Shown: one piece after another, positions 2,283-60,090 of the stretch
Layout of the letters: every line of letters begins with the position of its first letter
How positions within the stretch are numbered: position 1 is the first letter of the stretch
Assembly: GCA_000092065.1 (NCBI GenBank)
Contig: CP000584.1
Length of the DNA stretch: 64,000 nucleotides
DNA from: Ostreococcus lucimarinus
Taxonomy: Eukaryota
Strand: one strand, 5' to 3'
Program-made: the position numbers and the translations under genes
The notes under the pieces: generated by a model
What the model saw: only the letters and a program-made list of their open reading frames with translations
Databases searched by the model: none
What the model was told of the DNA's origin: nothing

Positions 2283-2433
2283 ACGAATCGATCCGTTCGC
2301 CGCTTGTAAAACAAACCATTCGCGAATCGCATCGCGACATCCGAAATCACATCGGCGCGCCGGCCCAACGGCATCGACATTCATCGACGCGCGTCGACCG
2401 CGCGCGACGCCGCGGCGCACGTCGACAGGGACG

Positions 2434-38400: not shown

Positions 38401-39189
38401 ATGTCGCGCGACGCCGACGCCGACGCGAGCGACGCCGACGCCGACGCGAGCGACGCCGACGACGCGCCGCGCGGCGAGGACCTGTACGCGATCCTCGGCC
38501 TGCGCAAGGAGGCGAATCCGTCGGCGAAGGACATCAAGCGCGCGTACCATCGCAAAGCGCTCGAACTTCATCCCGATAAAAACGTCGGCGACGCGAGCGC
38601 GGCGGGAAAGTTTCAGACGCTGCAGCGCGTGTACGGCGTGCTGAGCGACGAGACGAAGCGACGGACGTACGACGCGACGGGAAGGGTGGAGGACGCGGAG
38701 TTGGGAGGGGAGGCGTTTCAAAATCTGTACGAATATTACCGCGGGGCGTATAAGGAGGTGTCGACGGAGGATATCGAGGCGTTCGAGCGGGAGTATCGGG
38801 GAAGCGAGGCGGAAAAACGAGATGTGCTGGAGCGCTACGCGAAGTACGAGGGAGACATGACGCGGGTGTTCGCGTGGGTGATGTGTAGCGAGGAGGCGGA
38901 CGATTCGCATCGATTCGCCGACGTCGTGGACGAAGCCGTGAGGGATGGACGCGCGGAGTCGTACGCGGTGTACGAGGCGTGGGCGCGAGAGGTGAGGAAA
39001 CGAAAGGCGCCGAAAGATCCGCTGGGGGCGCGGAAGGTGAAAAAGGGGACTAAGAAGGGTGGCGGCGACGACGCGGATTTGTTTGCGCTCATTCAACGCA
39101 AGAACGCGATGCGAGCGGATCAGGCGGATGATATGTTCGCCGCGCTCGAGGCAAAGTACGCGCCGAAGAAAAGAACGAAGAAGAACTAG
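38401..39189 (+). CDS. DnaJ (J-domain) protein, DNAJC9-like
   Basis: J-domain 'DLYAILGLRKEANPSAKDIKRAYHRKALELHPDKN'. Overall length and C-terminal helical region match the DNAJC9 architecture. Confidence 0.75.
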   Translation: MSRDADADASDADADASDADDAPRGEDLYAILGLRKEANPSAKDIKRAYHRKALELHPDKNVGDASAAGKFQTLQRVYGVLSDETKRRTYDATGRVEDAELGGEAFQNLYEYYRGAYKEVSTEDIEAFEREYRGSEAEKRDVLERYAKYEGDMTRVFAWVMCSEEADDSHRFADVVDEAVRDGRAESYAVYEAWAREVRKRKAPKDPLGARKVKKGTKKGGGDDADLFALIQRKNAMRADQADDMFAALEAKYAPKKRTKKN

Positions 39190-39221: not shown

Positions 39222-40921
39222 TCACAAGAAGAATCCTTTGCGAATGGGCGCGTTGGGAGGCTTGGCCTCGACGACGTTTGCGCCGAGCGCGTGCTTGCAA
39301 ATTTTGCCTTTCGCGTCGCCACTGTACAGCGCCTTACCATCGGTTGTTACCACAATGGCGTTCACGTCAGCGTCGTGAATAGTCGTTTTGAACATGAGTT
39401 CGCCATCCGTGACGCGCCAAACGCTTAATTCGCCGTCGCCGCGAATGATCGAATACGGTTTCGGCGCTTGCGCCGCTTTGGAACTTCCGATGACGATGAA
39501 AGGATCGTTCTTAATCGTACATAATGAGTTGACATATCCTTCCTGACCACCAACTGATCGCACCCATTGTAACGATAATTTGCCGCTCTTTCCTCGCACG
39601 TCGTGGATGCGCACGCTGCCATCCGCACCGGCGCAATAGAGCGTTCGACCGTCTTTCGCGATCGTCATCTCTCGCACCGCGGAAGTCATCTTCGTGGTCG
39701 AGTGAGGCTGCATCGGTGTGACTTTCGACTTCAAGTCCCATATCGCGATGTATGCATCGAGCGAACCACTCACGATGGCGCTGTTAACTCTCACCAACGA
39801 CGTGACGCAGTCGCTGTGAAATTCCAAATGTTTCACTGTTCCAATTTCTCTCTCACCCGCAGCAGCGCTCTCGAAACATCGATCATACGCATCAACGTCA
39901 TCGATGTCGTCGAGTTTGCTCGTATGCTTGAACGTGAGGTCCTCGCCACTGCTTCTTTCTTCGTTTGTAGGCGAAGACGTTAAATCCCACACATAAACTC
40001 TTCCATCTCGCAACAAGGGCGACGCCAGATAAATGATCGACAAGTCGTCGTTCGCCGCCATCGAACGACACTGTGGCGCGGTGTTTGTGTATTTGGACAG
40101 CTTTTTTACGTTGACGTATTTAAAAACATCGGCGAAATCGCTGTGCGGCGCGCTCCACGTCGTCGTCTCTCCGTTGTCCAGCGACACCTTACTCCATCCA
40201 CCATTTTCGTACCCGACGAGCGCTTCGCCGCTGGCTTTCGATATTTGCAACATCCGCACGGGTGTGTTTGCGTTGTTAAACTCGTCTCCGGTGGCGTTCA
40301 CCGGCGTTGGATAAAAGCTCCGCATCGCGCCAGCGCCAACGTCGCCGCTTGCTCGAATCTGCTTCACCACGCCGTTCGTCATCCCGACGTACACGCTCGC
40401 CCCATCCGGCGCGATCGTCATCACGCGCACACCCTCGCGCACGAACTCCCCCTCGCCTTCGCGCGAAACTGCCTCTGGAACGACGACGCGCTCGAACGCC
40501 GCGCGCGTCGTCTTCATCTTTTCCGCCCGCGCCGGCGCCGACGTCGCGGTCCCGCCCAAACTCAAAGTCGTCGTCGAAGACGACGACGACGACGCTCCAT
40601 CGACCGCGACCGCGTCGAGATCCACCATTTGCGGCGGTGTCTCCCGCGTCCGCGGTCGGCGATGCTTCGCGTACCGCCCCGCGACTTTCCTCGCCCTTCG
40701 CTCGCGATCGCCCTCCCCATCGAGCGTTTCTTCATCGACCACCTCCACTTCGCGTATCCGCACCATCGCCCGCGCCGCCCCGCCCCGCCTCGCCTTCGCC
40801 GCGCCGCGACGTCTCGTCGACCTTCCTCGTCGCGCCTCGCGCTCGCGCGCGCGCGCGTCGATCTCGCGCGCGTCCGACTGGTCAGAGACGCGTCGCCCTC
40901 CCGAGCGTTTTTTTTTAATCA
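39222..40921 (-). CDS. WD40-repeat protein (C-terminal beta-propeller), hypothetical
   Basis: Multiple WD-like repeats ('SGSLDAYIAIWDL', 'AGADGSVRIHDV', 'GDGELSVWRV'). Probable start at ATG 40921 (MIKKKRSGG); the track ORF extends to 41279 through Arg-rich junk. Confidence 0.6.
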
Positions 40922-41081
40922 TTCGACGACCGTTTGGCCGCGGGACGCGACGTCGCCGCCCGCGCGAGCCGCACGCGTCGACGCGCGCGTCGCGCACGCC
41001 GCGCGCGCGAACGCACGCGAAACGCGGACGCGCGCGCGATCGACGCGCTCGGACGCCCGTTCGGTGCGGCGCGCGCGCGCG

Positions 41082-44000
41082 ATGCGGCGCCGTTTCGACG
41101 ACGAAGCCGCGGGGTGCGCGCGAAGATGCGAACGCGCGCGCGGGCGAACGCGCGGCGCGCGGTGGTCGCGCGGCGCCGCGGTGGCGATGCTCGTCGTCGT
41201 CGCGCGCGTCGTCGTCGCGCAGCGCGTTGAACCGATGAAGGCGCCGACGGTGACGTGGTTGGAACCGCCCAAGGGGCACGTCGCGGGCGGGACGACGCTC
41301 GCGGTGTACGGCGGCGGTTTCCTAAACTCGGCGCGGTTGAAGGTGAGGTTCGCGAGGGGCGAGGAGACGACGGAAGCGTACGCGACGTATCACTCGTCGA
41401 CGATGATCACGGTTGTGACGCCCGCGCGCGTCGGCGCGGGATGGACGCAAGTCACGGTGGCGAACGACGGGGAGACGTGGAGCGGGACGCCGAACGTGTA
41501 CACAAAGGGATCTGGGACGTTTTTGGCGTACGTCTACGACGATTCGTTGGCTGGATTTTACGATGGCGTGCGACAAGGGGAGAATACGAACGCGTATCAC
41601 GAGTTGTGGAGCGCGAGTAACACGACGGGGCCGTACATCGGCGGTACCATCGTGCGCGTCTACGCGCGCAACTTGGATTTGGGCTCGAATACGTTGTCGT
41701 CAAGCGCTACGTACGTAGGCCCGACAGACGGCGCGGGGTCGCCGAATCCGAACTTTCCAGACCCTAATGCGGTGATGAATAGTCCGCCGGTGCATGGGAC
41801 GTTCTATCCGGGCTCGAAGTTGACGTGCAGGATGACGTGCAACATCGATGTAAATCAAGACTCCAGCATCGCTAGCGACGGGTCGGAAACCTTTGTCACG
41901 GCGCAACCAGCAATTTGGCATAGCTACACGTCGGTTGAGTGCGAAACACCACCGATGCCGGTGCCAGTGGGCGATCCGATTCCGTCGACGGCGTGCCACA
42001 TGCACATCTCCAACGATGGGATCAACTACGATTACGCCAACGTTACATTTACGTACGCGGATCCGTTGCCGACAGTGACTAGCATTAGCACGGCGCAGTC
42101 TTCGGTTTGGGGCGCTCGAGGCCCTTTTGATGGAAACACCGAAGTCATCGTCAAGGGAACGAACTTCCTTCCTAGCAAGTATCTCAAATGCAAATTTGGG
42201 GGTATACCGGAGAGCGGTAAAAATTTATGGGAAAGCGACGACGTGTCGCACGTCGTCGGCACGCCCGGCGGACGTGTTCGGTGGGTTTCGAGCACGGAAA
42301 TTCGTTGTATAACCCCGGAGTTCGGTCCTGCGTCACAACAACGTCAATATCCAGCTGGTTCGACGTTAGCGGCCTCCATCGGGTGTTGCGCCGTGCTAGA
42401 TGTCACCTTTGATGCCAACAACGGCATTTCGTCCACCGTCACCATAGTCGACGGCGGGCGAGGCTACGCCACCGCGCCGGTGCTGACAATAATCGGTGGT
42501 GGAGGAGGGGGTGCGACGGCGACAGCGACCATAGACTCGAGCGGAGTCGTCAACGCGGTGACGATCACGAACGCGGGGCACTCTTATAATCAGGGCTCTG
42601 GCGCCACCGCCACGGCGACGCTCGACGCCTCTGGTGGAACGTTGAGCGCGCTTACGCTCACGGCTGCGGGAAGCGGTTACACCGTGCCGCCTGACGTGAC
42701 GTTTTCGTGTAGCGGCGGGGGTGACTCGTGTCTGGGTACGCATATGCAGCACGCTCGTGCTGTGGCAACTCTAGGTCCCGCCGCCAATTGTTTCCCCGAG
42801 TATGGATGCTACGACAAAGTTGTCGTATCGCTGCGACTGACGTTCGTCGGTAATACGTACACTTCCGCGCCTGTGGTTACGATATCACCTCAAAAGCCGT
42901 ACGTCTTGGTGCAGGCGAATGAACTTTTCACATCGGCGAATGATCCCCCGTCGATTGGGGCGTACACCATGCAAGGGAAAGGGGAAACCGAGCTCGATCC
43001 GCAGCTCTCGCACGGCTCGTGGGTGGACGACGGAAGCGGAGGGCGAATTTACAACGTCACCGACGCGCCTTACGACGTTGTCGCGGTCTCGGGTGTACCA
43101 GGAGCGAATCCTGGGCGACGTCTGTACGCGGTCAATCAATATAGTCAGAATAGCCCGGAAGATCGCGGTGATCTTCTCGCACCGCTGGGCCAAGCGGGAA
43201 GCGATGGGTCGATTAAACCGGCGCACCAGGATCTCGTACAAGTGAGCAACAATTACAACAAGTTCGGCGTTCCTGTGATCGGTAACGCGGCTGCAACGCC
43301 CACGCACGTTGGATATCGCGACAACACCGCAGCGGTAAAGGGATATTGGATGTGGAGTCGCAGTACGGGCTCAGCGAGCGATTGCCAAGTTTCCAACAAT
43401 CCGCCGTTGAACTTTTATGATGGCACAACGCTTATGGGACATAACCTCGATAAAGGCACGGGGTGGGTCGTCGCTGGCTCCTCAAACGAGTACTTGGGCA
43501 TTCCTGGAAACTCCGACTTGGGTCATCCGTCGAAATCGTGCTTGTACTTTTTGTACGGCGACATTTACGTATCGCCGTCGGGGAGCGACGCAACCGGACA
43601 AGGCACCGCGGCAAGACCGTACGCCACGATTCAAAAGTGCATCGATTCGGCGTTGACAGACGTGCGTGATTATCACGTGAACGCCGTCGGTGAGTCAAAC
43701 CCGAGCGTGCCCGCGAGGATATCGACGCAAATCACTAAATTCAACGCTGGGCGCTCGCAAAAGCGCGATGGAGGCGGCGGCTACGCGTACACTGTGAATC
43801 GCGATCGTTGCATCCTGAAAGACGGCACGTACTTCGGCCCGGGCAATCGACAACTTCGTGCCAACGGTCGCGTCATCCAGCTATGGGCAGAAAACGAGGA
43901 GCGAGCCGTCATCGACTGCGAAGGCTTCCCCGTGGGCAAGCAAGTCTACGCCAAGCGCGAGCCGACGCGCGTGAGCGCGCCGGGTTCGATCGCCACCCAG

Positions 44001-44084
44001 GGCGTCGTGCTCAAGCGATGCGGATTCAAGATGCCTTACGCCGCGGCGGATAAATTATTTTACCCCGGTCGTCCGACGACGTGA
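41082..44084 (+). CDS. Secreted/surface protein with N-terminal IPT/TIG domain, Gly/Thr-rich tandem repeats and a right-handed beta-helix (pectin-lyase-fold)-like C-terminal region
   Basis: Signal-peptide-like 'MLVVVARVVVAQRV' (ATG 41187; an earlier ATG lies at 41082). TIG 'VTWLEPPKGHVAGGTTLAVYGGGF'. Repeats 'GGRGYATAPVLTIIGGGGGGATATATIDSSG / VVNAVTITNAGHSYNQGSGATATATLDASG / GTLSALTLTAAGSGYTVPPDVTF'. 'GDIYVSPSGSDATGQGTAARPYATIQKCIDSA' is typical of the start of parallel beta-helix domains. The track ORF from 40143 is an artefactual upstream extension overlapping the WD40 gene. Confidence 0.6.
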   Translation: MRRRFDDEAAGCARRCERARGRTRGARWSRGAAVAMLVVVARVVVAQRVEPMKAPTVTWLEPPKGHVAGGTTLAVYGGGFLNSARLKVRFARGEETTEAYATYHSSTMITVVTPARVGAGWTQVTVANDGETWSGTPNVYTKGSGTFLAYVYDDSLAGFYDGVRQGENTNAYHELWSASNTTGPYIGGTIVRVYARNLDLGSNTLSSSATYVGPTDGAGSPNPNFPDPNAVMNSPPVHGTFYPGSKLTCRMTCNIDVNQDSSIASDGSETFVTAQPAIWHSYTSVECETPPMPVPVGDPIPSTACHMHISNDGINYDYANVTFTYADPLPTVTSISTAQSSVWGARGPFDGNTEVIVKGTNFLPSKYLKCKFGGIPESGKNLWESDDVSHVVGTPGGRVRWVSSTEIRCITPEFGPASQQRQYPAGSTLAASIGCCAVLDVTFDANNGISSTVTIVDGGRGYATAPVLTIIGGGGGGATATATIDSSGVVNAVTITNAGHSYNQGSGATATATLDASGGTLSALTLTAAGSGYTVPPDVTFSCSGGGDSCLGTHMQHARAVATLGPAANCFPEYGCYDKVVVSLRLTFVGNTYTSAPVVTISPQKPYVLVQANELFTSANDPPSIGAYTMQGKGETELDPQLSHGSWVDDGSGGRIYNVTDAPYDVVAVSGVPGANPGRRLYAVNQYSQNSPEDRGDLLAPLGQAGSDGSIKPAHQDLVQVSNNYNKFGVPVIGNAAATPTHVGYRDNTAAVKGYWMWSRSTGSASDCQVSNNPPLNFYDGTTLMGHNLDKGTGWVVAGSSNEYLGIPGNSDLGHPSKSCLYFLYGDIYVSPSGSDATGQGTAARPYATIQKCIDSALTDVRDYHVNAVGESNPSVPARISTQITKFNAGRSQKRDGGGGYAYTVNRDRCILKDGTYFGPGNRQLRANGRVIQLWAENEERAVIDCEGFPVGKQVYAKREPTRVSAPGSIATQGVVLKRCGFKMPYAAADKLFYPGRPTT

Positions 44085-44619: not shown

Positions 44620-45228
44620 ATGATGCGCGGTGGACCGTTTAAACTCCAGAACGCCGACCCCGAGGCGGCGGCGACGGAGAAAATGAAGAAGGAAGCCATC
44701 GCGCGCGTGAAATCGTGGGTCGAGGCGCGCCTGCCGAGTGAACACCTGACGAATCGCGATGCGGTGGTGGACGTGAGCGAGGTGCAGTGCGGGGACCCGA
44801 ATTGCGCGCCGATCGACGCGGTGGTGAGGATCATTTACAGGGAGTCGTGCGGGACGATCTTCGGAATTCCGTGCGAAGTGCAAGACGTGGAGGAGGAAGA
44901 CATCGAATCGCAGATGCCGCCGCCGGGAGTGATCGAGGATTGGTATCTGGGGAAGCCGACGCCGTGGCCGCCGGAACCGGAACCGCAGGAGCCGGGACCG
45001 GTGCCGACGGACGCGTTGCGGTTCGCGGTGGGCGACCGCGTACGGTGCCGCATCGGACCGGGCGAAGATGGATGGGCCGCGGGGACGGTCGTCGCGCATT
45101 GGTATCGCGGAAGCACGTGGCCGACGGGACAGTACGCACCGTATCAAGTGCAGCTCGATCGTAAGGATATGGGCAGTGGTTTGATTTTCGCGCCGTACGA
45201 CAACGATCAGTGCGTGATGAAGGAATAA
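44620..45228 (+). CDS. Hypothetical protein (202 aa)
   Basis: Protein-like composition with 'QCGDPNCAPID' and Trp/Pro-rich segments. No family assigned. Confidence 0.4.
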   Translation: MMRGGPFKLQNADPEAAATEKMKKEAIARVKSWVEARLPSEHLTNRDAVVDVSEVQCGDPNCAPIDAVVRIIYRESCGTIFGIPCEVQDVEEEDIESQMPPPGVIEDWYLGKPTPWPPEPEPQEPGPVPTDALRFAVGDRVRCRIGPGEDGWAAGTVVAHWYRGSTWPTGQYAPYQVQLDRKDMGSGLIFAPYDNDQCVMKE

Positions 45229-46006: not shown

Positions 46007-46190
46007 ATAACGCGACGCACCGATGCTCGCCCGACCAATCGTCGTCACGGCGTCGCGAACACAAGCTAATACGCACGCTCATTCGCTGCGTGCTCGCGTT
46101 GCATTCCCGCGAAACTCGCGCGTCGTCAAGTTGAGAAAGCCTCCCCGCGGCGCCGCGCACGTCTGCACGAGTCCGGCGCGGCCGAGAGTG

Positions 46191-47318
46191 ATGGTTGTCC
46201 ATGCGGATCCAGACGACGTGCGAACGACAGAACCCGAGGCAGAGGTCGAAGACGCCACGGACACTTCCGTCGAAGACGCGACGAAAGAAGTCGAAGCTGA
46301 GGTCGTCGAACCTCACCGAGTGATGACACCCGAGGCCATCGAGACGAAGAAGGCAGACGTGGACTCGGACGACGAAGCGCTGGCGGAAATGACGCGCGTG
46401 TTGCAAACTTCTTTGAGTCCGCGCGCCGCGGCGCTCATCGCGAAGGGCTTTGTTGATCTAGGAGTGGAGTCACCGAGAGATTTGCGCCGCGCTGTGGCGA
46501 AACGATCGAGCGCGATGATTGGCATCGAAGCGCTCGCAACGATCTTCAACGGATTGATGTGTTTCAGTTTGTTCTCGCTCGCAGCCGCGGCTCAGTTCTC
46601 CGACTTCTTCATACCGAGCTTCTGGAATTACGTCGTGACGTTGTTAGGCATGGTTGGTGCCGCAATCTTCGCAGTCGAGGCGGGCGCGCATCTCTTCATC
46701 ACCGCCGTCTACGTGTACAGCACGATTCGATTCGAGACGACTGATTTGAGAAAGTTCGTGCAATCCATGCAACGGATCGGCGATAACGATCACATCATCG
46801 GTGTCGTACCGCAATCGTCAACCATCAAGCGCGCGTCCACGCTCGTTCACGTCGTGAACGTGTTGAATAACCTTCGCGACGCGTTGCATTCCGAAGCCGA
46901 AATCATCACGCCGACGCACAAGAGCACTTTGCACAACTTGGCGGCGTACTTCGAGTACTCCAACGCTCAAGCGAAGCAAGGTTTCAAACCAGAGGACTAT
47001 GGGCTTGACTCGAAACAGTGCATGGCAATTGCCTCTCTGTTTTCTGAATGGGACACTGACGGAAGCGGAACGCTGCGCAGCGAGGAGCTCTCAAAGCTCC
47101 TTCGCTCGCTCGGCGACGACACGATCAATGACATGGACGTCAACATGGCCATGCGCATCCTCGACAAGAACGAGACCGGTGAGATCGACTTCGGTGAATT
47201 CGTCAAGTGGTACAAGGACGGCGTCAAGCTTCCCGATACGATGACTGCGAGCAAATCGGGCGCCGACGACCTCGAAGACATCGACCCCAACACGCGCATC
47301 GACGAAATCACCGGCTGA
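46191..47318 (+). CDS. EF-hand calcium-binding membrane protein (2 TM helices + 2 C-terminal EF-hands)
   Basis: Hydrophobic segments 'LATIFNGLMCFSLFSLAAAAQF' and 'VVTLLGMVGAAIFAVEAGAHLFITAVYVY'. EF-hand loops 'DTDGSGTLRSEE' and 'DKNETGEIDFGE'. ATG at 46191. Confidence 0.6.
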   Translation: MVVHADPDDVRTTEPEAEVEDATDTSVEDATKEVEAEVVEPHRVMTPEAIETKKADVDSDDEALAEMTRVLQTSLSPRAAALIAKGFVDLGVESPRDLRRAVAKRSSAMIGIEALATIFNGLMCFSLFSLAAAAQFSDFFIPSFWNYVVTLLGMVGAAIFAVEAGAHLFITAVYVYSTIRFETTDLRKFVQSMQRIGDNDHIIGVVPQSSTIKRASTLVHVVNVLNNLRDALHSEAEIITPTHKSTLHNLAAYFEYSNAQAKQGFKPEDYGLDSKQCMAIASLFSEWDTDGSGTLRSEELSKLLRSLGDDTINDMDVNMAMRILDKNETGEIDFGEFVKWYKDGVKLPDTMTASKSGADDLEDIDPNTRIDEITG

Positions 47319-47587: not shown

Positions 47588-50500
47588 ATGAACTTTATTC
47601 GCCGTTTCGCCAACTCGAGTAATCCGACGCTCGACGCGCGCGACGCGACGCCACCATCGACGTCCGCGCCCGATGCGGCGGGCGCCCGCGTCGAGCTTCG
47701 ATCCGCCGAGACGATCGACGTCCCGCGCGTGATGAATTCGATGTTTGACGAGGGCAGGGACGGGGATTTGGTGTTTTCGTGGCAGTTGATGTCGGGCACC
47801 GCGAATGCGGGCGAAAGCAGCAGACGCGAAGCGACGAACGCGTTCTTCGACGCGTTTTCGGAGACGTACGCGCGGTGGGAACCGGCAAGGGCTAGGGGTG
47901 CAGATGAAGGGGACGATTCAGACGTCGGGTGCGCGGTCGCGCATCCTCGCGCGGTGACGCTCGCGGCGGTGGAGGACGCCGCGGGTCTGGGGGAACGGTT
48001 GGAGCGTGCGCTCACGGGCACTGTCGACGTCGGTGGAATCGAGCAGAGGATGGCGAGCATTGGTGTAGAAACCTTTCGAGCTCTGGAGATTATGTCGAGG
48101 TCGGCGCACAACAGAGTGTTCATGGAGCAGTGCGGGGCGAGTCGCGCGTTGGCAAACGCGTGCAAAACGTGCGCGCAGCGAATGTTGACGTTCAGCGCGG
48201 GGGCGGCGTCGGCTTCAAAAGAAAATTCAATCGAGGCTGGAGCGCTGTTGGAAGCGTTGCAGCACGTCGTGGAGCACGCGGTGAATGTGATTGATTCTTT
48301 CTTGGGCGACGCTTGGGCACTTCGTTCGTTCAACGAAAACGGCGCTTTGTTGGCTTTAATTGAAGTATTACGTGCGGAAAAAGTGGTCGTTGGTCGTGTC
48401 CACGGTGACGTCCGTAAGATGGCAATTTCAATAGAGCGAATGGCCATGCGCGCGATCGGGCGCGTCATGCACGGCGATGCCGCCGTACAAAAGAGCATAG
48501 CAGGAGCAGGAGGCTTGGATATTTTTTTTGAAGGCGTGTACCCAATCGAGGCTGACGTCAGCGTCGATATCGCGGGGTTCGAGACGTCGCTCATGAATCT
48601 CGAAATATCGCACACGCTACTTGCTGGTAATAAGTCCAACGTTGAGCGCGCTCAAGGCATTGGTTTGTTTACGCGAGTGGCCCGTCTGATGCGCGCGGCG
48701 AATGATTTGAGCGAAACACTCGTCTCAGATGAGGCGAGCACGTCAACGACGGAAGGCGAAGTCGCTGGTGTTCCATGGAGCGCGCAGCTCTTAGACGACT
48801 CCCTACGTTGTCATGAAGTCATCATCACGGACGGATATCCTAGTGAGGTGATTAAGAGACTGTTGAAATTCGTCCATCAAGACACCAGCGCCGCTGGCGG
48901 TTGGGCAAGTAAAGGAGCGAGGGAAATGATCTTAAAATGTCTCTTCGATTCGATTATTGAAGCGTGCTCGAGTTCAAAAGAGTCATTCAAGAGCGATTCA
49001 GAGTGTGTGAGATTTAGAGCACACGTGTTACGCTTTTTTAGTGACGCCATCGATATAGATCCCGCGGTCTTGCGCGTGATGCGTCAAGCACGCGCGTGGG
49101 ACATGTTGTTAGACGCCGATACGTACGGCGCAATTCCTTCAGTGGATCACAAAAATGAATATGAATCGGTGTCAGAGAGCACGACGTCGATCTTACGGCG
49201 TCGTGTACAAATTCAAACCGCGGCGTTACTTCTCAAAGCTTGTCAAATTGCCGCCGAATTGTCTGATTGTGTGGACGAATGCAACGTTCTGATCGGCACC
49301 ATCACGACGAGAGCAATACAGCCGTCGGTTGCGATTCGGCTTTGTCGCGTTCTAGAGCTTCTGCTAATCGATTCGTCGCACAGTGTGTGTAAAGCGTTAT
49401 CCGAGGTGGAAGCTCCAGGTCGACTTGCGGGGGCGTTGAACGCGCAATTGAAATGCTGGGGGTGTGACCAGGTAGCGTTCATCGGTGAAGTAGGAGCGAC
49501 AGCGAACTCCGCTGCTTTTGGTTCTACACTAAGCGCACTGAGGGCGTGTCTGAATGGTCCGGACGTGCTCGCGGCGTCGGCACTCAACAACGATGGTGTT
49601 TCTGACTTGATTTTCAACGAGCTTTTGTGGACAAACACGACTCGCGATTTAGCCATATCGGCCGTCGTATCTTTGGTGGGGTTGCGTCTGCACGCTCCAT
49701 CACCTCACGCCAGCGGCGCGCATCGTGAAGCATGGTCAAGCGTGGCGCGCCGATTCATCCAGGCCCTTCCCCGTGCACGAGGTACCGATATCACGTTGTT
49801 ATCGGCGATGCTTTCTGGGTTGCGTCAAATGTTGAACAATCCAAACGGCTCCGGAGACAGTCTGCGAGAATGGATATCGTCTGAAGACGGCGCAGAGTTT
49901 GTACAAATCGTTGCGCTTTGCGATGGTGACGCTGGTGAAGAGGTTGGGTTGGATGTCATAGCGACGTTACAGGCAGTGATCTCTAACTCGCATTCGTCAG
50001 CCTCAACGTTTGAGCGCTCAGTTGGATACGACACATTGATTGACGCCATACAGTGCGCTCGCGGCGCGGGTCCAGTATCCAAACCTCTGTTCGACGCCCT
50101 CATGAGCTTTGTTATTGATGACGACTATGGCACAGGGGGCGAGTCCAGCGGCATCGCTTTGCGGAACGCTAAGGCGCTACAAATGCTGCTCACTCTGATA
50201 GGAAACCTCGGCGCGTCTGACGAGTTAAAGGATGAGCTTCTCAAGGCTTTTAAGCAGATGTTGTCAGCGTCTGTGACGTCAAAAGCCACCGCAGATGCGG
50301 CTGGTGTTTTAGACTTCTGTCTTCAATGGTACGTGGATGCGAATCGCCGGCAAGCAGTACTCGAAGTCATCGCGCTTTGCAGCTCGTTTTCAATGTCCAC
50401 CAAGCACGTGCGTCAAATATTCCGTCTGTTGCAGGGCGACTCCATTTCAGCGGACGATCAATTGCAGCTGCTCCGGGTCCTACAGCACTCCGCAAAGCGA

Positions 50501-53500
50501 GTTGGTCCTTCTACATTTTTCGATTTCACTGGACCTGGTTGCGGGATTCACGTTAATAAACAACTAACTCTTCCAGTACGAAACGGCTACACCGTCTCGA
50601 TGTGGTTCCGCATCGAGCGGTTTCCGGAGTACGGCGGTCCAGTGCCGCTGTTTTCTTTACTATCGGGCGCTGGTAACGGCATTTTAGGAGAGTTACATGC
50701 GAACAAGCTCACGCTTGGCATTCGAGGATCCACGGGCACAGTTGATACCGCGTCGATCGACATCACAGTACGAGAGAACGAGTGGACTTTCTTAACGATT
50801 GTGCACCTTCCGGTGCGAATGTCGCAACCCCTGGTTCGTGTCTTCCTCGATGCTGGCATGGTTGGTCAGGCGAAGTTGCGTTACCCGATCAAGTCCACGG
50901 AAGCGATATCGTATTGTCGCATTGCTTCCGTGACGTTCGACGTTAGCCTAGAGAACGCGCACGTCAAGGTGTCACCGTTTTTCGGCCAACTGGGTTCGAC
51001 GCATATATTCGATGATGCCCTTTCGCAACCGGCGATTGCGATGATTCATGCACTCGGTGCAGATTATGTCGGACGTTTTAAGTCAACAGAATCGCAAACG
51101 GAAAGAATCCTTCAGGCAATCAGCGTGAACGCTGTCGAGGCTCGCGATACTCGCGAGTATCTCGCCGATCATCGACTGATTAGTATAAGCGCAGTCACCG
51201 TCGCCGGTCGAAGCGCTCAGTCGGAGGTGTACGACGTGAACGAATATGATTTGATCGGAGGGGCGAAAGTTTGCGTCACAAACTCAGTCAAAGACGTCGT
51301 GCACTGCCTCGGTGGTGTTCAAGTCGTTCTTCCAATCTTTTCTGACATCCTGCACGCCGCCGAGACGTCGAAACGGCGACAAATTGTTTGCGAAGGGGTT
51401 CATCTGCTCGTTGCTTTACTCGATGGAAGCAGACTCAATCAAGTTACGTTAACGTTGTGTGATGGGTACGCCTTGATTGCAAATCTTCTGCGAGAGAATG
51501 CAACGACTTTACTCTGTCCAGATTTACTCCCAGCACTCGACAGGCTTCGTCGTGCGGGCGGGATCGAGCACGAATCGGCATCGGCACGCATCGTCGTTGA
51601 TTTGCATCTTTGGTCCCTCGCCGATGACGCCACTCAAAAAGCGCATGGCGAGTACTTGTTGAGTTTGGCGACCAAACACTCGGATGGATTACGATTTCAT
51701 TTGCCAACAAGTGATCTCATCGATGCCCTCGATTTCACTCCAGGTGCGAGTGGAACGTCTCGTCGTCGAGTTTTGTTGGACGTGTTGAAGCAGCTTGTTA
51801 TCGACGCCCCGAATCAGATGATTGAGGAAACTGCGGAAACTATCGTTCACGTCATCGAAGAATGTGCCGACGAAGACACCGTTGGTGATGTTCTGCGCTG
51901 GCTAGTTAACTGCATGCAACCGGGTGAGGAAGTTCAGCCCACGCTCTACCAGGCTTTCACCAAGCTCGGCGGACCACTGCTGGCGCTATCGCCTTTGAGC
52001 AGGAGCTCCAGGCGAGTCCGCTCTTTCGCTCTTCTGTGGCTTGCAAACTTGATGCCTCCGCTCGAGGCTTCGAGCAAGAGTTCTGGGGGTGCCTCTCATA
52101 TATCTGCTGCTTTCGGCGCGGCCGCTGGTGCGCTGACTGCCACTCTCGGCGGCAAGTTCACGGCGACAGCGAGTCAGGATTTTGAAGTCGGCTTTTTCAC
52201 TGCAGTCGCGAACGCCCTCGAAAAATTCCCCCTCGATATCGCTGAATCCCGCTCGGCGCTCTTTGAGCTTTTACTTGGTGGCCAGGCGCTACCAGCGGAA
52301 AAAGTAGCCGAAAGGTTGAACAGGGAAAAGAATTCATCCGTGCGAGCTGCGGCTGGCAGGCTCTTTGCCAAAGTCACAGGCCACGGAAACGACGCGCAAA
52401 CCAAAGATAAGGAGTGTATTAGCGTTGGTGTACCCGGTATAGTCAATGCAGGCGCCGCTGGGGTGTTGCTTCGACTGATGAATTCAAGCGATAATGCGGA
52501 AATGCGTTTAAGCGTGCTCGAGCTGCTTCTCCAACTCGTGGAAGGTGCAAGCGTGAACGCACAGGCTGTGCTGGAGCAGCGAGGCTGGCAGACTTGGATC
52601 CTCCCCATCCTCAAAGACCACAGTGACGAAACGCAAAACGACGAGAAATCGATGGCTCGACGATTAATAACGGCACTTCTCTCGCACGCGGTGCTCAAGA
52701 CTGACGAAGGTCACCAGCACGTGTCGAACATGCTTGGCGTCATCGACATTCTCATCAAACGCGGCGTCTTAGCCGATGAGTCAGACTTAGCGCAGGAACT
52801 CCTTTCGGATTTGCTTGAGTGCATTCTCCCGACGCGAGCGTCTTCGTCCGAGCAAGACGAGTGGTCTGAAGTGCAAAATGTTGAGTCACCGATATGTCGT
52901 CGCAACCTTTCGAGACTTTTGCACATATTCGACTCAATCATTTCCGACACGTCCGCGACAGCGGCCGCGCTTGGAGTACCGAGTGCCTCCGATGCAAAGT
53001 CCAGCGTTAAGAAGATCTCTTGGAGATTTTACGACAACTTATGGAACCTATTAGATGCGATCTCTCCTCCTGGTCATCCCGTGGACGCGCCCGAAGAGAC
53101 GGCGGATGCCGTAAAATCCACAAACATGGCTCAAAAGCTGCACAGGCGAGCGAAGAGTATGATTCGTGATTTACCATTTTCGAGCAATAGCGAGAGCGAG
53201 TTTGATAGCGTCGAAGCCGTTGAGGCTCTGCGCAAGACTTGTCAGCGAATGGGATTCAGGTTGACCTTACTTTACGTGCGAGCGAGCGCGCTCGAAGAGT
53301 TGCAGACAGCACTGAATACGTGCATTGGACTTCTACCATCATTTTTGGCCCCAGTCTTGGTCGACAAGGATGGAAAAGCGATGGATACCGCGCCGCTAGG
53401 GAACAGAGCGCACTTGTTTATCGCGGATTTGATGCGTTACGTCGAGTTTGCTAAAAAGAGTGAAGATCCTGATGCGTCAACACGGTCGCAGCTCGTCGTA

Positions 53501-56500
53501 AATCTCGTTCGACTCGCATCTGAGGTTGGTAGACTTCTGCTTTCAGATTGCGCGAGCGTCGAGGAGTGCGCGCATTTGGACGGCCGTGATTTGATTTCTG
53601 AACAAAAGGTGGCAGCCGCCGCAGCGATCGAGGCCAAAGAGTCTAGGAAAGTCAAAGAGCTGCGCTCAAAAGTGAGTGAAAACTTTCTTTCCGAACGTAC
53701 GCGGCACGAGCAAAGGCAAGCGCAAGCCGAGACGGCACTGTTAGAGACTCATAAGTCTAAATTGGGTCCGGTAAGCGAGCGCGAGCGCGCACGTCGCGCG
53801 ATGCAGCGTCTGACGTTTGAAGAACGTTGCGATGTGCTCGCTCGTCGGTGGTCCGCGATGTTGCGCGACTTACAAGGTGAGCGAGGCGCGTGGGCGGCTG
53901 AAAACTGTGATGCAAAGGCGCACTGGAAACTCGACAAGTCTGAGGACTCATCGATGAGACGATCTCGTTTGAAGCGCGATTATAAGTTTGTGCAGTACGA
54001 AGACAATCAAAAAGGTGGCGAATCAACATTACAAAGCGATGTACAAGATATCCAAGCGGTTCGCCTCGTCGGCATGGGTCAAAAATGGAAGATGAATTCG
54101 GATAGCGACTACGTTGATGTCGATGATGTCGCAGACGAACTCGCAGAAAAACTCGCTGTGGACAAGGAGAACGCGATGCACAATAGGAGTAAAGTCGTGT
54201 TCAGCACGCCGGCATCACTCGTGACGCTCACGAGAACTGTACTGGGTAAGCTCAATGTCAGTCGTGATGCCGTTGTATTTGCCGCCGATCGTACGCATGA
54301 GAGTGCGAAAGATCATCGAAAACGTTTCTGGCGATGGAGCTTGAGTGAAATTGTCGAGGTACATCACATGCGATATCGCCTTCAGCACAAGGCTTTCGAG
54401 ATGCATTGCGCGGATCACACCAGTGCCTTTTTTGCGTTCGATACCAAGAAAACGGCGCGATACGCAGCTACGCGCGTGGCATCATCGGCGGGGGCGACTT
54501 TGATGAACAGACGTGCGAAAACTGAAGCAGCCGAACGCGCGAAGGAGCTCTGGCGCAGACAAAAACTGAGCACTTTCGATTATCTTATGGCCTTGAACGT
54601 CTTCGCCGGGCGAACGTTGCACGACTTGAGTCAATATCCCGTTTTCCCTTGGGTGTTGAAAGAATACGAAGCTGAAACAATAGATCTGGCCGACCCTTCG
54701 GTGTATCGAGATCTGAGAAAACCCGTTGGCGCGCTCAACGAAGAGCGTCTCAAGAACTTCGTTGAGAGATACAAGTCGCTGTTGGACGACCCTGACACGC
54801 CGCCTTTCCATTACGGCAGTCATTACTCATCGTCCCCGATCGTACTTTTCTTCTTGTTACGCCTGGAACCTTACACGAAACTCGCTCGAGCATTACAGGG
54901 CGACAGATTTGATCGAGCAGATCGCTTATTCCATTCGGTCGCGGAAACGTTCAAAGCTTGCGTAGAATCATCCGCTGATGTCAAGGAACTTATTCCAGAA
55001 TTTTACTACTCGTCCGAGTTCTTGACGAATACAAATGGACTAAAACTTGGGGTGCGACAGGACGGATCGACTATTGATGATGTAGTTCTCCCGCCTTGGG
55101 CCAAGGGTTCGAGGCACGAATTCACTCGAGTGATGCGGGAATCGCTAGAATCGGACTACGTAAGCGAAAATCTGCACCACTGGGTTGATTTGATTTTCGG
55201 GCACGCACAGCGAGGGGCCGCCGCGGTCGAGCGATGCAACGTGTTTTATTATCTCACATACGAAGGCGCCGTGGATATCGACACATTAGAAGATGATGAT
55301 CAACGGAACGCGATCGAGACACAAATCATCAACTTCGGTCAGACTCCCGCGCAAATTTTCAGGCGCGCGCACCCAGTTCGTCTGCCGCCCCAAGCGACAG
55401 AACACGTGGTTTCAATCTCTCCCGAATCGCTCAAACTCGCGACAGTTGTCTCATCCGAGTCTAACGGCCTACCGATGCGGGCGCAAGCGGTGGTGCACGC
55501 CACCGCGTACGATTCGCGTATTGCCGTGGTCACCGCTGGACGAATGGTTTCCATTCAGCGCTTACAACGTCCTGGAACGACATTCGGGCTGGGTGGCGTC
55601 GATCACTCAACCGCGTACGCGCTCGAACCAGAGACGACATCCCGGCTCATGCTCGAAATTGACGTCGACGCCGATTCGCTTGCGCATTCGCAATCCGTCA
55701 ATGTCGCTCTGAAAGGCAAAGTCTTGCTGAGTGTTGGCCATTGGGACAGAAGCATGCGTATTTTCGACATTGAGGAGGGGCGCGAGATGCAGCGTATCAG
55801 TGCACATCGAGATGTGACGACGTGTCTCGCGTTGTGCGAACTCGGGAGCTCGAGGAGCTGGGACGAGGCTTCGCACCAAATGGACCAAGTCATCGTGGTT
55901 ACGGGAAGTCGCGACACCACGCTCGCGATCTGGGAGATGGTGCTCCCTCAAGGAGGCTGGGGCTTTAGTAAAGGCACCAAAGTCCTGAGCGCCGAACCAA
56001 AAATGATCTGTTTCGGTCATGACGAAGCCATCACGTGCGTTGCTGTGAATTCATCGCTCAACTTGGTAGCGAGTGGCAGCATTGATGGCACCCTCATCCT
56101 GCACGACAGCCGGGATGGGCACATCGTTCGTGCATTGGAAAGCACCCCACCTGGGTGCATCCCATCGTCCATCGAATTGCTTCCAAAATCATCTCTCGTC
56201 GTGTGCGCGTGCGGCGTCGCCGGCGCGCTGTCCGTGCATGATGTCAACGGTGCCACACTCGCCAAATCGCTCAGTCGGCACGAAGCCTTTGACGCATTTT
56301 GCGTCACCCGCGACGAGCGACATATTCTCATCGGCAATCGTCGCGGAGACATCACTGTCCGCGCCGTGCATGATTTATCGATTCGTGCGCAAATCAACGT
56401 CGCCAACGCGGGCGTCGTCTCCATTTCACCCGTCGCGCGCGACGAGTGCCTCGTCGTCGGTCTTGCCGACGGTCGTGTGTGCCTCTGGGCGCCCGCGGCG

Positions 56501-56512: not shown

Positions 56513-56667
56513 CTGCATTGTAAAATAACTAGCTCAATCCGTTGATCCATCGTCGTCCTCGCGCGACATCGCATCTCGCGCCAGCCGCGCCAGTGACTGG
56601 CCAGTTGCGGCGCAAGATGAACGCAATCCGAATCGCACGTCACTTGCGGCCGCATCGAACGCGCAGC

Positions 56668-57336
56668 ATGACGAAGGCGAAGAAAACCAAGCCCGCGCAC
56701 AAGTCGAACAAGAAGAAGAAGGTCGCCCCCGCGAACCGCGCGACGACGCGCGCGGCGCTGCAGAAAACGCCGACGAGGGGAAAGACGGTGCCGGCGAAGT
56801 TGACGGAGAAAAATATGACGCCCAAGGCGCTGAGGACGCCAAAGACGCCGAAGATGACGTCTGCGGGCGTGGCGAAGAAGCCTCGGTCGAGCACAAAGTC
56901 GGACGGGCGGCGAACGACGCCGAAGAAACCTAAAAATACGACGTCGTATATCATGAATCAGCGCAAGTACGGTGCGCAACCGCCGACGCCAAGACCGTTG
57001 AGTGGGATGAAGAGCCCGAGATTGGAAACGCTGGCGACGGCAACGATGAAACCGCCAGCAAGTGGATTAGATATGTTCGGAAGCATGCTCGGGGCGTTGT
57101 CGCCGGCGGCGTTAGAGAGGGTCGAGGTCGAAGGTGAGGAGTCGACGTCGGAAGTTATCAAACTGTGTTCGATTATTACCGAGCAAGCGAAGACGATTCA
57201 GCGATTGGAGTCGGAGGTTAATCACCTGCGGGCGCAGTTACAGGCTCGAGCGGTCGCGCCAGTCCCAACGTTGCGTCGTGTACCGTCAACGACATCTGAG
57301 TTGGCGTCGCGCATTGCCGGTTTGTTCAAGCGATGA
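56668..57336 (+). CDS. Lys/Pro/Thr-rich basic protein with (T/S)PKK-type motifs and C-terminal coiled coil, hypothetical
   Basis: 'MTKAKKTKPAHKSNKKKKVAP...TPKALRTPKTPKMTSAGVAKKPRSSTKSDGRRTTPKKPK' then the helix 'SEVIKLCSIITEQAKTIQRLESEVNHLRAQLQA'. ATG at 56668. TGTAA lies 13 nt after the stop. Confidence 0.4.
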   Translation: MTKAKKTKPAHKSNKKKKVAPANRATTRAALQKTPTRGKTVPAKLTEKNMTPKALRTPKTPKMTSAGVAKKPRSSTKSDGRRTTPKKPKNTTSYIMNQRKYGAQPPTPRPLSGMKSPRLETLATATMKPPASGLDMFGSMLGALSPAALERVEVEGEESTSEVIKLCSIITEQAKTIQRLESEVNHLRAQLQARAVAPVPTLRRVPSTTSELASRIAGLFKR

Positions 57337-57401
57337 ACGTCGCTAATGATTTGTAATCTTCACATTGTACTACGTGCCGCAAGTCGGTTTCTTATCGGTG
57401 C

Positions 57402-59909: not shown

Positions 59910-60090
59910 CGCGCGCGCGCGTCGCACGATGGCGTGCGACGGTTGTCTGTGCGCCAACTGAACTCGCTCGCGTCTCGCGCCTCGTTCGACTTGACTACTT
60001 TTGCTTTTTGTGTTACACGTGGTATTTCTAATGTGTGTGTTTGAATGTCGTTTGAATGTCGTTAATCGTGTTGTTCTGATCGTCGCGCGC

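What the first reader, a model, noticed from the sequence alone, without database searches (positions are those of the whole stretch)
41082..44084. Large secreted TIG + beta-helix protein with bacterial-adhesin-like Gly/Thr tandem repeats
The protein combines a signal-peptide-like N-terminus, an IPT/TIG domain and a run of ~30-aa G/T/A-rich repeats (..GGRGYATAPVLTIIGGGGGGATATATIDSSG..). A C-terminal segment begins with the parallel-beta-helix hallmark GDIYVSPSGSDATG...ATIQKCIDSA. Proteins of this type are usually cell-surface or extracellular carbohydrate-binding or carbohydrate-active proteins. In a tiny alga such a protein could be involved in cell-surface, scale or virus-receptor biology. 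The beta-helix region looks short (~150 aa to the stop), so the gene model may be incomplete. I found no clear splice signature at its 3' end.
Basis: partly seen in the sequence, partly recalled or inferred. Interest (0 to 1): 0.5.

Follow-up and report, generated by a model that had tools for sequence, protein, structure and literature searches.

The report
Secreted TIG-rod protein, beta-helix stub
This is a real, complete, single-exon gene for a roughly 1000-residue, probably secreted protein conserved in tiny green marine algae; it strings together Ig-like (TIG) domains, a repeat otherwise seen in marine cyanophage tail and bacterial surface proteins, an unknown domain and only the first turn of a beta-helix, and its function is untested.

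Summary
The ORF at 41082-44084 (+) is real and complete. Orthologues at 61-79% identity sit in the same gene neighbourhood. More distant ones (about 42%) include Micromonas pusilla XP_003060717.1, Prasinoderma coloniale and MMETSP transcripts. All are labelled hypothetical.

Domain order:
- Signal-peptide-like N-terminus.
- Two Pfam-supported TIG domains and one weak TIG-like domain.
- Four roughly 30-50-aa GxGY/GGGG/AxAxA units. They match cyanophage virion protein families and bacterial lipoprotein-like proteins. No Pfam model covers them.
- A family-specific middle domain (aa 613-798).
- A 187-aa C-terminal module.

The C-terminal module is homologous to the cap plus first coil of bacterial right-handed beta-helix domains (hhalign 99.5%). 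The polypeptide stops there in every relative. At least 35 other protein clusters, nearly all with TIG domains where checked, also end with this stub. The short "beta-helix" is therefore a conserved feature and the gene model is not truncated. A carbohydrate-active helix body is absent.

AlphaFold2 failed on aa 613-1000. The most likely role is a cell-surface or extracellular rod-like binding protein (inferred). Novelty is moderate: a new variant built from known parts.

The parts
41082..44084 (+). Complete single-exon coding sequence, 1000 aa plus stop
   Evidence: ORF list and translation. Full-length homology to 24 family members. Near-identical metagenome copy P0001 in locus L004.
41082..41219 (+). 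Putative signal peptide, aa 1-46: Arg-rich n-region, h-region GAAVAMLVVVARVVVA, possible cleavage after VVA|Q
   Evidence: Highest Kyte-Doolittle 19-mer window at aa 31-49. Orthologues P0010, P0019 and P0020 have canonical signal peptides ending SRA|Q, ARA|Q and VSA|Q. Not scored with SignalP.
41244..41501 (+). IPT/TIG domain 1, aa 55-140
   Evidence: Pfam PF01833, E=6.7e-18. AF2 block-mean pLDDT about 53-82. Foldseek hits to plexin and Met IPT strings.
41502..42068 (+). TIG-like domain 2 with long insertions, aa 141-329
   Evidence: Weak partial TIG hit at aa 277-325, E=0.018, below the cut-off. TIG-type start motif TGPYIGGTxV is nearly invariant. Beta strands in the AF2 model.
42069..42329 (+). 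IPT/TIG domain 3, aa 330-416. Second most conserved segment (60-89% identity)
   Evidence: Pfam TIG, E=2.9e-8. Per-segment identity.
42387..42917 (+). Four GxGY / GGGG / AxAxA beta-repeat units, aa 436-612 (U1 436-476, U2 477-506, U3 507-556, U4 557-606)
   Evidence: PHROG hits: phrog_460 at 3e-13, phrog_708 at 1e-10, phrog_701 at 1.5e-10. tblastn to 29 cyanophage records. 42% identity over 100 aa to the P-RSM4 baseplate wedge protein. Best-predicted part of the AF2 model, block-mean pLDDT mostly 73-88 (54 at aa 571-580). Unit alignment.
42918..43475 (+). Family-specific middle domain, aa 613-798 (motifs QGKGxxELDP, DGSIKPxHQxLVxVSNNYxKFG, GYWxWS, CxVSNNPP, GHxLD)
   Evidence: Conserved in all family members. 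In the top 150 of the 1.84-billion-protein HMMER scan, profile positions 1-165 hit only family members, apart from one weak partial hit. No Pfam, NCBIfam or PDB match. AF2 pLDDT about 25.
43521..44081 (+). C-terminal 'beta-helix starter' module, aa 814-1000
   Evidence: Profile A5. hhalign to the N-terminal start of bacterial beta-helix domains: 99.5% probability, E=3e-23. HMMER hits to Beta_helix / DUF1565 / Chlam_PMP proteins.
43560..43661 (+). Cap motif, aa 827-860 (IYVSPSGSDATGQGTAARPYATIQKCIDSAL). Most conserved segment (74-88% identity out to Prasinoderma)
   Evidence: phrog_4577 tail protein, E=4e-4. Marginal PDB hits to a tailspike and a GH120 xylosidase N-terminus.
43662..43790 (+). 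Variable loop inserted between cap helix and first coil, aa 861-903 (19-28% identity; much longer in Micromonas-type forms, absent in some other proteins with this C-terminal module)
43791..44036 (+). First coil(s), aa 904-985: VNRDRCILKDGTYFGPGNRQLRANGRVIQLWAENEERAVIDCEG ... GSIATQGVVLKRC, with two invariant Cys (aa 946 and 980)
   Evidence: Aligned at 43% identity to bacterial DGTYTGxGNRDLxFxGKxIxVxSxxGPExxIIDCxG. Invariant columns.

Best explanation
The gene encodes a secreted, disulfide-stabilised, rod-like extracellular or cell-surface protein of a picoprasinophyte. After signal-peptide cleavage, three TIG/Ig-like domains and four GxGY beta-modules form an elongated stalk of about 550 residues. 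The stalk carries a conserved C-terminal head made of a family-specific domain plus a beta-helix 'starter' stub (cap helix and first coil only). The head is the likely interaction surface, binding protein or glycan, and the stalk acts as spacer. The stub is too short to be a polysaccharide lyase or hydrolase, so it is more likely a compact docking or oligomerisation module. Shown: gene reality and completeness, domain order, and homology of each module. Inferred: secretion, rod shape, binding role and location.
For: The gene is real and complete: full-length orthologues, a shared stop position, transcript-derived complete ORFs (P0010; P0088), and conserved neighbours DNAJC9-like / WD40 / gene / 202-aa ORF / EF-hand. 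Secretory character: the N-terminal hydrophobic segment, canonical signal peptides in orthologues, invariant Cys at aa 249, 253, 287, 305, 370, 409, 543, 550 and further conserved Cys at 768, 820, 853, 910, 946, 980, and no C-terminal transmembrane segment. Ig-like stalk: Pfam TIG; Foldseek matches to plexin and Met IPT arrays and to the Chlamydomonas mastigoneme; the repeat region is confidently all-beta and matches phage virion structural families and bacterial multi-repeat lipoprotein-like proteins. Head: the cap is the most conserved segment. The stub is homologous to the first coil of beta-helix domains. It recurs as the extreme C-terminus of 35 other representatives, and 7 of the 8 run through Pfam carry TIG. 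That recurrence argues for an autonomous terminal module.
Against: There is no experimental or expression data, and no signal-peptide predictor was available. The h-region is interrupted by Arg and follows a 30-aa basic stretch, so a signal anchor or even an organellar presequence is not excluded for this species. AF2 gave no usable model for aa 613-1000 (pLDDT 25-35), so the 'head' is defined by sequence conservation only. No ligand can be named. Only 3 N-glycosylation sequons are present.
Confidence: 0.55

Rival explanations
1. It is a carbohydrate-active enzyme or lectin of the pectate-lyase / tailspike beta-helix type.
For: The cap and first coil are homologous to beta-helix domains. There are marginal PDB matches to a tailspike and to a GH120 xylosidase N-terminus.
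Against: The polypeptide ends about 55 aa after the IDCEG motif, where Pfam Beta_helix coils begin in the bacterial relatives. For example, in P0161 the starter is at 1252-1305 and Beta_helix at 1311-1460; in P0163 the starter lies at the first positions of DUF1565. No Pfam beta-helix, pectate-lyase or NosD hit was found in any of the 20 family members. Active sites of such enzymes lie on the helix body, which is missing here.
Confidence: 0.07
2. The gene model is truncated or mis-spliced, and the true protein continues into a full beta-helix encoded downstream.
For: The beta-helix-like region is unusually short. An orthologue has an intron near the 5' end, so introns do occur in this gene family.
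Against: Four orthologues stop within 0-2 residues of the conserved GRP, while the window protein carries two more (GRPTT) and P0006 ends ...YYAS. MMETSP transcript ORFs flagged complete end about 40 aa after the same point. The downstream 536 bp hold only Pro/Ser/Ala-rich junk ORFs before the next conserved gene at 44620. No further match to the family profiles occurs anywhere in the window. Thirty-five independent clusters end at the same place.
Confidence: 0.03
3. The GxGY repeat block, and perhaps the beta-helix starter, entered an ancestral prasinophyte gene by horizontal transfer from marine bacteria or their phages. The protein is a eukaryotic TIG scaffold with prokaryote-derived modules. 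This concerns origin and is compatible with the best explanation of function.
For: Apart from the algal family, the repeat matched only cyanophage virion proteins (29 of 29 phage records are Synechococcus or Prochlorococcus phages), a phage-like protein (P0029) and bacterial proteins (P0026, P0027). The starter is 43% identical to that of bacterial giant beta-helix proteins. All these organisms share the marine picoplankton habitat.
Against: No phylogeny was made. The repeats are short and compositionally biased. The family is old, reaching Prasinoderma, so any transfer is ancient. The gene has eukaryotic neighbours and an intron in one orthologue. Scans of IMG/VR and of bacterial genomes with the algal patterns found no close relative.
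Confidence: 0.25
4. It is a virus receptor or a virus-resistance determinant at the cell surface (prasinovirus attachment).
For: It is predicted to be exposed and elongated. The phage-type receptor-binding-like repeats and starter suggest glycan or protein recognition.
Against: There is no evidence at all linking it to viruses. No relative was found in viral contigs. It is a syntenic gene, with no second copy in this window, of moderate conservation (61-79% between the short-form orthologues); whether it evolves fast was not tested. Papers mentioning Ostreococcus and TIG domains are unrelated.
Confidence: 0.08

Closest known systems
Micromonas pusilla CCMP1545 XP_003060717.1 / MICPUCDRAFT_60213 (UniRef C1MXM3), and Prasinoderma coloniale PRCOL_00005153
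   Same: Same family: the same domain order, motifs and C-terminal stub. The cluster holding the Micromonas entry has a representative 43% identical to the window protein.
   Different: Long forms (about 1350 aa) have an extra pair of GxGY units, a roughly 60-aa larger loop in the stub and a Cys-containing C-terminal tail (GYGPGxxxPxGxxCWPGxTGCQ). All are annotated only as predicted or hypothetical, so nothing is known about function.
T4-like cyanophage baseplate-region structural proteins, e.g. Prochlorococcus phage P-RSM4 PRSM4_108 (YP_004323237.1, 'baseplate wedge subunit'); PHROGs 460, 708, 701, 32294
   Same: The same GxGY...PxVxF-GGGG-xGAxAxA...G.V..V.I repeat. 42% identity over 100 aa and 22 invariant columns.
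   Different: The phage proteins are virion components encoded between gp9 and gp8 and carry other domains (YHYH). The algal protein is chromosomal and eukaryotic, has TIG domains, and its unit 2 lacks the PxVxI-GGGG half.
Bacterial giant multi-beta-helix proteins (Pfam Beta_helix PF13229, DUF1565 PF07602, Chlam_PMP PF02415), e.g. P0161, P0163, P0145
   Same: The cap motif YVSxxGxDxxGDG(S/T)xxxP(F/Y)xTIQxxID and the first coil DGTYxGxGNRxLxxxGKxIxxxxxxxxxxxIDCxG are homologous (hhalign 99.5%, E=3e-23).
   Different: In bacteria each starter is followed by about 300-450 aa of helix coils and is repeated up to 12 times. In the alga it occurs once, ends the protein and has a 43-aa insert between cap and coil.
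Plexin / Met / Chlamydomonas mastigoneme Mst1-type IPT arrays
   Same: Tandem TIG/Ig-like beta-sandwiches forming an extracellular stalk (Foldseek E down to 1e-8).
   Different: No sema, PSI or kinase domains and no transmembrane segment. The TM-scores are low because only individual domains superpose.
Fibrocystin / PKHD1-family proteins (TIG arrays followed by G8 and PbH1 beta-helix repeats; from general knowledge)
   Same: The order TIG then beta-helix-type element in a secreted protein.
   Different: No G8 domain or PbH1 repeats were detected. It has no transmembrane anchor and is far shorter.

Membership tests
IPT/TIG domain proteins (Pfam PF01833) | Match to the family HMM above the curated gathering score | tested here: met
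   64.9 bits against a cut-off of 20.9, E=6.7e-18, aa 55-140. Second domain at aa 330-416, 34 bits. All 20 family members match.
IPT/TIG domain proteins (Pfam PF01833) | Ig-like beta-sandwich fold | tested here: met
   The AF2 model is all-beta with block-mean pLDDT about 53-82 for TIG1. Foldseek finds plexin A1/A4 IPT and Met IPT with probability 1.00. The third, TIG-like domain (aa 141-329) is only weakly supported (E=0.018).
Right-handed parallel beta-helix domains (Pfam Beta_helix PF13229 / DUF1565 PF07602 / pectate-lyase-like) | N-terminal cap motif and first coil homologous to those of family members | tested here: met
   hhalign of A5 against bacterial starters: 99.5%, E=3e-23, 77 columns, 43% identity. 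HMMER hits to proteins carrying Beta_helix, DUF1565, NosD or Chlam_PMP.
Right-handed parallel beta-helix domains (Pfam Beta_helix PF13229 / DUF1565 PF07602 / pectate-lyase-like) | Match to a Pfam beta-helix model above threshold | tested here: not met
   No hit even at E<=5 for aa 814-1000, and none in any of the 20 family members.
Right-handed parallel beta-helix domains (Pfam Beta_helix PF13229 / DUF1565 PF07602 / pectate-lyase-like) | A body of several consecutive coils (PbH1 repeats) | tested here: not met
   The protein ends 54 aa after IDCEG. In relatives the Pfam Beta_helix region starts just after the matched stretch (P0161). The same end point is seen in all family members and in 35 other clusters.
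Right-handed parallel beta-helix domains (Pfam Beta_helix PF13229 / DUF1565 PF07602 / pectate-lyase-like) | Predicted three-dimensional beta-helix | tested here: inconclusive
   AF2 pLDDT is 30-60 for aa 900-985 and 34.9 overall for aa 613-1000. Strands are predicted but there is no reliable fold.
Phage / bacterial GxGY repeat proteins (PHROGs 460, 708, 701, 32294, 2885; no Pfam model) | Significant profile match of the repeat region | tested here: met
   E=3e-13 to 3e-8 for aa 442-547. tblastn E down to 4e-5 in 2.3 Gb of phage DNA. P0026 at 2.7e-16 and P0027 at 6e-14 in the 5.8-billion-protein search.
Phage / bacterial GxGY repeat proteins (PHROGs 460, 708, 701, 32294, 2885; no Pfam model) | Being a virion component or prokaryotic surface protein | tested here: not met
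   Eukaryotic chromosomal context (DNAJC9-like, WD40, EF-hand, BEACH neighbours), an intron in an orthologue, and no relative in IMG/VR. The protein shares the module but does not belong to those protein families.
Classical secretory proteins | Cleavable N-terminal signal peptide | tested here: inconclusive
   Hydrophobic segment at aa 31-49 and a VVA|Q site. Orthologues have canonical signal peptides. No SignalP-type tool was available, and the n-region is unusually long and Arg-rich.
Fibrocystin/PKHD1-like (TIG + G8 + PbH1) | G8 domain and PbH1 repeats after the TIG array | tested here: not met
   No G8 or Beta_helix Pfam hit in any member.

The most novel reading that the evidence does not exclude
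The C-terminal beta-helix 'starter' (cap helix plus one coil, two invariant Cys) may be an undescribed autonomous domain class. It terminates TIG-containing secreted proteins of marine microbial eukaryotes. It could work by docking or by templating inter-subunit beta-stacking, for example oligomerising the rods. Together with the GxGY block it would be a prokaryote- or phage-derived module co-opted into a eukaryotic surface protein.
Probability: 0.25. Interest if true: 0.55.

Novelty: new variant of a known kind. Interest (0 to 1): 0.35.

Why it matters
Picoprasinophytes such as Ostreococcus and Micromonas are naked or nearly naked cells, and their surface proteins are almost uncharacterised. 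Yet the surface governs virus adsorption, grazing, aggregation and sinking.

This family is a conserved, syntenic, large predicted exoprotein, so it is a concrete candidate for surface biology.

The analysis also defines two sequence modules that curated libraries lack:
- The GxGY repeat, shared by algae, cyanophage virions and bacterial lipoproteins.
- A terminal beta-helix starter stub.

It also corrects the expectation that the protein is a carbohydrate-active beta-helix enzyme.

Tried and rejected
- AlphaFold2 on the full protein with a 20-sequence alignment gave a mean pLDDT of 49.6, usable only for the TIG and repeat parts.
- A second run on aa 613-1000 gave pLDDT 34.9, so no fold search was done on it.
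- PDB sequence searches found nothing for the whole protein, the middle domain or the repeats. They found only motif-level hits for the cap: the AsnRS N-terminal domain, a tailspike and a GH120 xylosidase.
- NCBIfam found nothing for the window protein.
- Pfam found nothing beyond TIG. Gly_rich_2 at E=0.23 is not significant.
- The IMG/VR scan with family patterns found no relative.
- The bacterial and archaeal genome scan failed in two ways. The first alignment was too divergent to give patterns. The second gave 47 pattern matches, none confirmed. The bacterial spread of the repeat therefore rests on P0026, P0027 and the PHROG hits only.
- The word-indexed homology search with C-terminal profiles returned few proteins. 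The exhaustive HMMER scan was what revealed the beta-helix link.
- Cluster look-ups gave almost no organism names for the other proteins that end in this C-terminal module.
- Literature searches returned nothing relevant.
- I considered and rejected contamination or a prokaryotic origin for the whole gene, because of its eukaryotic neighbours and the intron in an orthologue.
- I rejected a recent DNA repeat expansion, because TRF finds nothing in the repeat region.
- I rejected fibrocystin-like membership, because there is no G8 domain and no PbH1 repeats.
Full report
**Observation.** The frame 40143-44084 (+) is open. The first ATG is at 41082 and the stop at 44082-44084, giving 1000 aa. A near-identical metagenome protein, P0001, was called six codons further upstream; in the window that position is a GTG. 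The coordinates and the description of the sequence are therefore correct.

**The gene is real and eukaryotic.**
- A search of 5.8 billion proteins returned 24 family members.
- The short forms are 885-969 aa and 61-79% identical. They end at the same place: ...YHGRPS*, ...YYGRP*, ...YYGRA*, ...YYAS*, against ...YPGRPTT* here.
- The long forms are 1200-1381 aa and about 42% identical. They include two MMETSP transcript ORFs flagged complete, Prasinoderma coloniale PRCOL_00005153 and, in the cluster of P0016, Micromonas pusilla CCMP1545 XP_003060717.1 "predicted protein". None has a functional name.
- The window gene lies between a DNAJC9-like gene (38401-39189), a WD40 gene on the minus strand, a 202-aa ORF (44620-45228) and an EF-hand protein (46023-47318). 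The orthologue at 74% identity has the same neighbours plus a BEACH-domain gene.
- That orthologue carries a canonical GT..AG intron of about 135 nt right after the signal-peptide exon. The intron is absent here.
- The window contains no second copy.

**N-terminal half.**
- The only strongly hydrophobic segment is aa 31-49 (GAAVAMLVVVARVVVAQRV), after a 30-residue Arg-rich stretch.
- Orthologues have textbook signal peptides: MKKAWAGVLWAAVLFAAVAPGSRA|QD...LAPTARA|QN and ...PIGVSA|QS.
- Fourteen Cys are invariant or nearly so. There is no C-terminal hydrophobic segment.
- I infer a cleavable signal peptide and a soluble or peripherally attached exoprotein. No dedicated predictor was available, so this is not shown.
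- Pfam TIG matches aa 55-140 (E=6.7e-18) and aa 330-416 (E=2.9e-8). Residues 141-329 give only a sub-threshold partial match, although they carry the TIG-type TGPYIGGTxV start.
- The AlphaFold2 model is poor overall (mean pLDDT 49.6). It is acceptable for the TIG domains and good for aa 440-612.
- Foldseek finds plexin and Met IPT arrays and the Chlamydomonas mastigoneme, that is, strings of Ig-like sandwiches.

**The repeats.**
- Residues 436-612 contain four units of 30-50 aa. The pattern is AxAxA(I/L)...G.(V/L)..(V/L).(I/L)...G.GY...P.V.(I/F).GGGG.
- They are old, diverged protein repeats. TRF finds no DNA repeat there.
- No Pfam model covers them in the alga, in bacteria or in phages.
- They match PHROG families of phage virion proteins: phrog_460 at 3e-13, with phrog_708, 701, 32294 and 2885 down to 3e-8.
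- By tblastn they hit 29 phage records, every one a marine Synechococcus or Prochlorococcus myovirus.
- The best-annotated example is the 1380-aa protein PRSM4_108 of phage P-RSM4. It is encoded between gp9 and gp8 in the baseplate cluster and is 42% identical over 100 aa, with 22 invariant columns in a joint alignment.
- Foldseek against viral models again returns cyanophage structural proteins.
- The same unit occurs many times in tandem in P0026 and P0027. These have lipoprotein-type N-termini, and P0026 sits among bacterial two-component and NlpC/P60 genes.
The best-documented relatives, however, are phage virion proteins.

**Middle domain.** Residues 613-798 are strongly conserved within the family (QGKGxxELDP, DGSIKPxHQxLVxVSNNYxKFG, GYWxWS, CxVSNNPP, GHxLD). 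An exhaustive HMMER scan of 1.84 billion representatives used a profile of aa 613-1000. In its top 150, the positions for this domain matched only family members, apart from one weak partial hit. Pfam, NCBIfam and PDB are silent. AlphaFold2 gives pLDDT of about 25. This domain is unexplained.

**C-terminal module.** The same exhaustive scan gave 1193 proteins at E<=1e-3 and 236 at E<=1e-10. I re-mapped the 142 new proteins among the top 150 locally. Thirteen were left unclassified. The rest fall into three groups.
- Nineteen are family members or fragments of them.
- Seventy-five are very long proteins (median 1952 aa, up to 6639 aa). They have 3-12 matches spaced about 400-500 aa apart, either to the cap motif or to the first-coil region.
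  - Four that I sampled carry Pfam Beta_helix, DUF1565, NosD or Chlam_PMP, and one has a dockerin domain.
  - In P0161 a match at 1252-1305 immediately precedes Beta_helix at 1311-1460.
  - In P0163 the cap and coil matches (1032-1119) overlap the first positions of DUF1565 (1048-1234).
- Thirty-five have one cap plus one coil match ending within 0-56 residues of their C-terminus. Seven of the eight that I ran through Pfam contain TIG domains.

A profile-profile comparison of the algal-type module (A5) with the bacterial starters gives 99.5% probability, E=3e-23 and 43% identity. It runs from YVSPSGSD to IDCEG. In bacteria the helix coils follow that point; in the alga about 55 residues follow and then the stop.

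The shortness is a conserved property of a whole class of TIG proteins and does not come from a faulty gene model. The following points support this.
- The cap is the most conserved part of the protein, at 74-88% identity out to Prasinoderma.
- Two Cys, at aa 946 and 980, are invariant across the class.
- A loop of variable length separates cap and coil.
- No Pfam beta-helix model reaches significance on any family member.

**How it most likely works.**
- Shown: a conserved, complete, eukaryotic gene. The domain order is signal-peptide-like segment, TIG, TIG-like, TIG, four GxGY units, unknown domain, beta-helix starter stub.
- Inferred: the protein is secreted. The seven beta-modules form a stalk, and the conserved C-terminal third is the functional head that binds a partner.
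- A helix body is lacking, so the lyase, hydrolase or tailspike-like activity that a beta-helix would suggest is unlikely.
- The stub is more plausibly a small docking or oligomerisation unit. That a truncated helix end could pair with another copy is speculation.
- The family occurs in naked genera (Micromonas) and in walled Prasinoderma, so it is not specific to scales.
- Nothing links it to viruses. The IMG/VR scan was negative.

**Comparison and novelty.** Each recognisable part belongs to a known kind: TIG, a phage or bacterial structural repeat, and a beta-helix cap. The gene is already present in public genomes as a hypothetical protein. Three things are new:
- the architecture;
- the recognition of two uncurated modules;
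- the finding that a beta-helix starter without a body is a recurrent C-terminal ending of TIG proteins.

The repeat and the starter may be of prokaryotic or phage origin, given their distribution. No phylogeny was made, so this is open.

**Verdict.** TIG, the repeats and beta-helix-type sequence hold up; the truncation worry and the carbohydrate-active implication do not. The finding is of moderate interest (0.35), as a new variant of a known kind.

Noticed in passing
L001:5715-5849 (orthologue locus); equivalent window position about 41232-41276: The orthologue at 74% identity has a canonical GT..AG intron of about 135 nt immediately after codons MKAPQ, between signal peptide and TIG1. The window gene is continuous there (MKAPTVTWLEPPKGH). 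This explains why prokaryote-style calls of that orthologue (P0002) start at MITVVTPAR.
   Followed up: yes
window 1-6000 and 48000-62000: AT skew is unusually high (+0.31 to +0.39) over the first 6 kb. G+C drops to about 0.53 between 48 and 62 kb, against 0.60-0.65 around the gene.
   Followed up: no
window 43560-43661 (cap motif, aa 827-860): The profile of the C-terminal module matches the N-terminal extension of human cytoplasmic asparaginyl-tRNA synthetase (PDB 4zya, LYVSDREGSDATGDGTKEKPFKT) at E=4e-6. This is a motif-level resemblance with no obvious explanation.
   Followed up: no
window 42381-42389 (aa 434-436, GCC) and 42495-42512 (aa 472-477, GGGGGG): Micromonas-type relatives have a vicinal Cys pair, GGGGCC, in repeat unit 1 where this protein has GGGGGG. 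This protein and its closest relative instead have a CC pair about 40 residues upstream (IGCCAV).
   Followed up: no
P0146, P0150, P0153, P0167 (proteins from the exhaustive scan): A second, paralogous family of GC-rich marine eukaryote-like proteins shares the signal peptide, the N-terminal TIG (LQxLxPDKGHxVGGT) and the same C-terminal stub. It has a different middle region (motif FRWRxH). Its organisms are not identified.
   Followed up: partly
window 41000-41230: The 5' end of the gene and its upstream region are CG-rich low-complexity DNA (TRF periods 10-29). They encode the Arg-rich n-region. An A/T-rich run (tttttttttaat) at about 40907-40918 lies in the short divergent intergenic region shared with the WD40 gene.
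   Followed up: no
window 44620-45228: A conserved 202-aa ORF directly downstream has no Pfam match, yet it keeps its position in all related loci.
   Followed up: no
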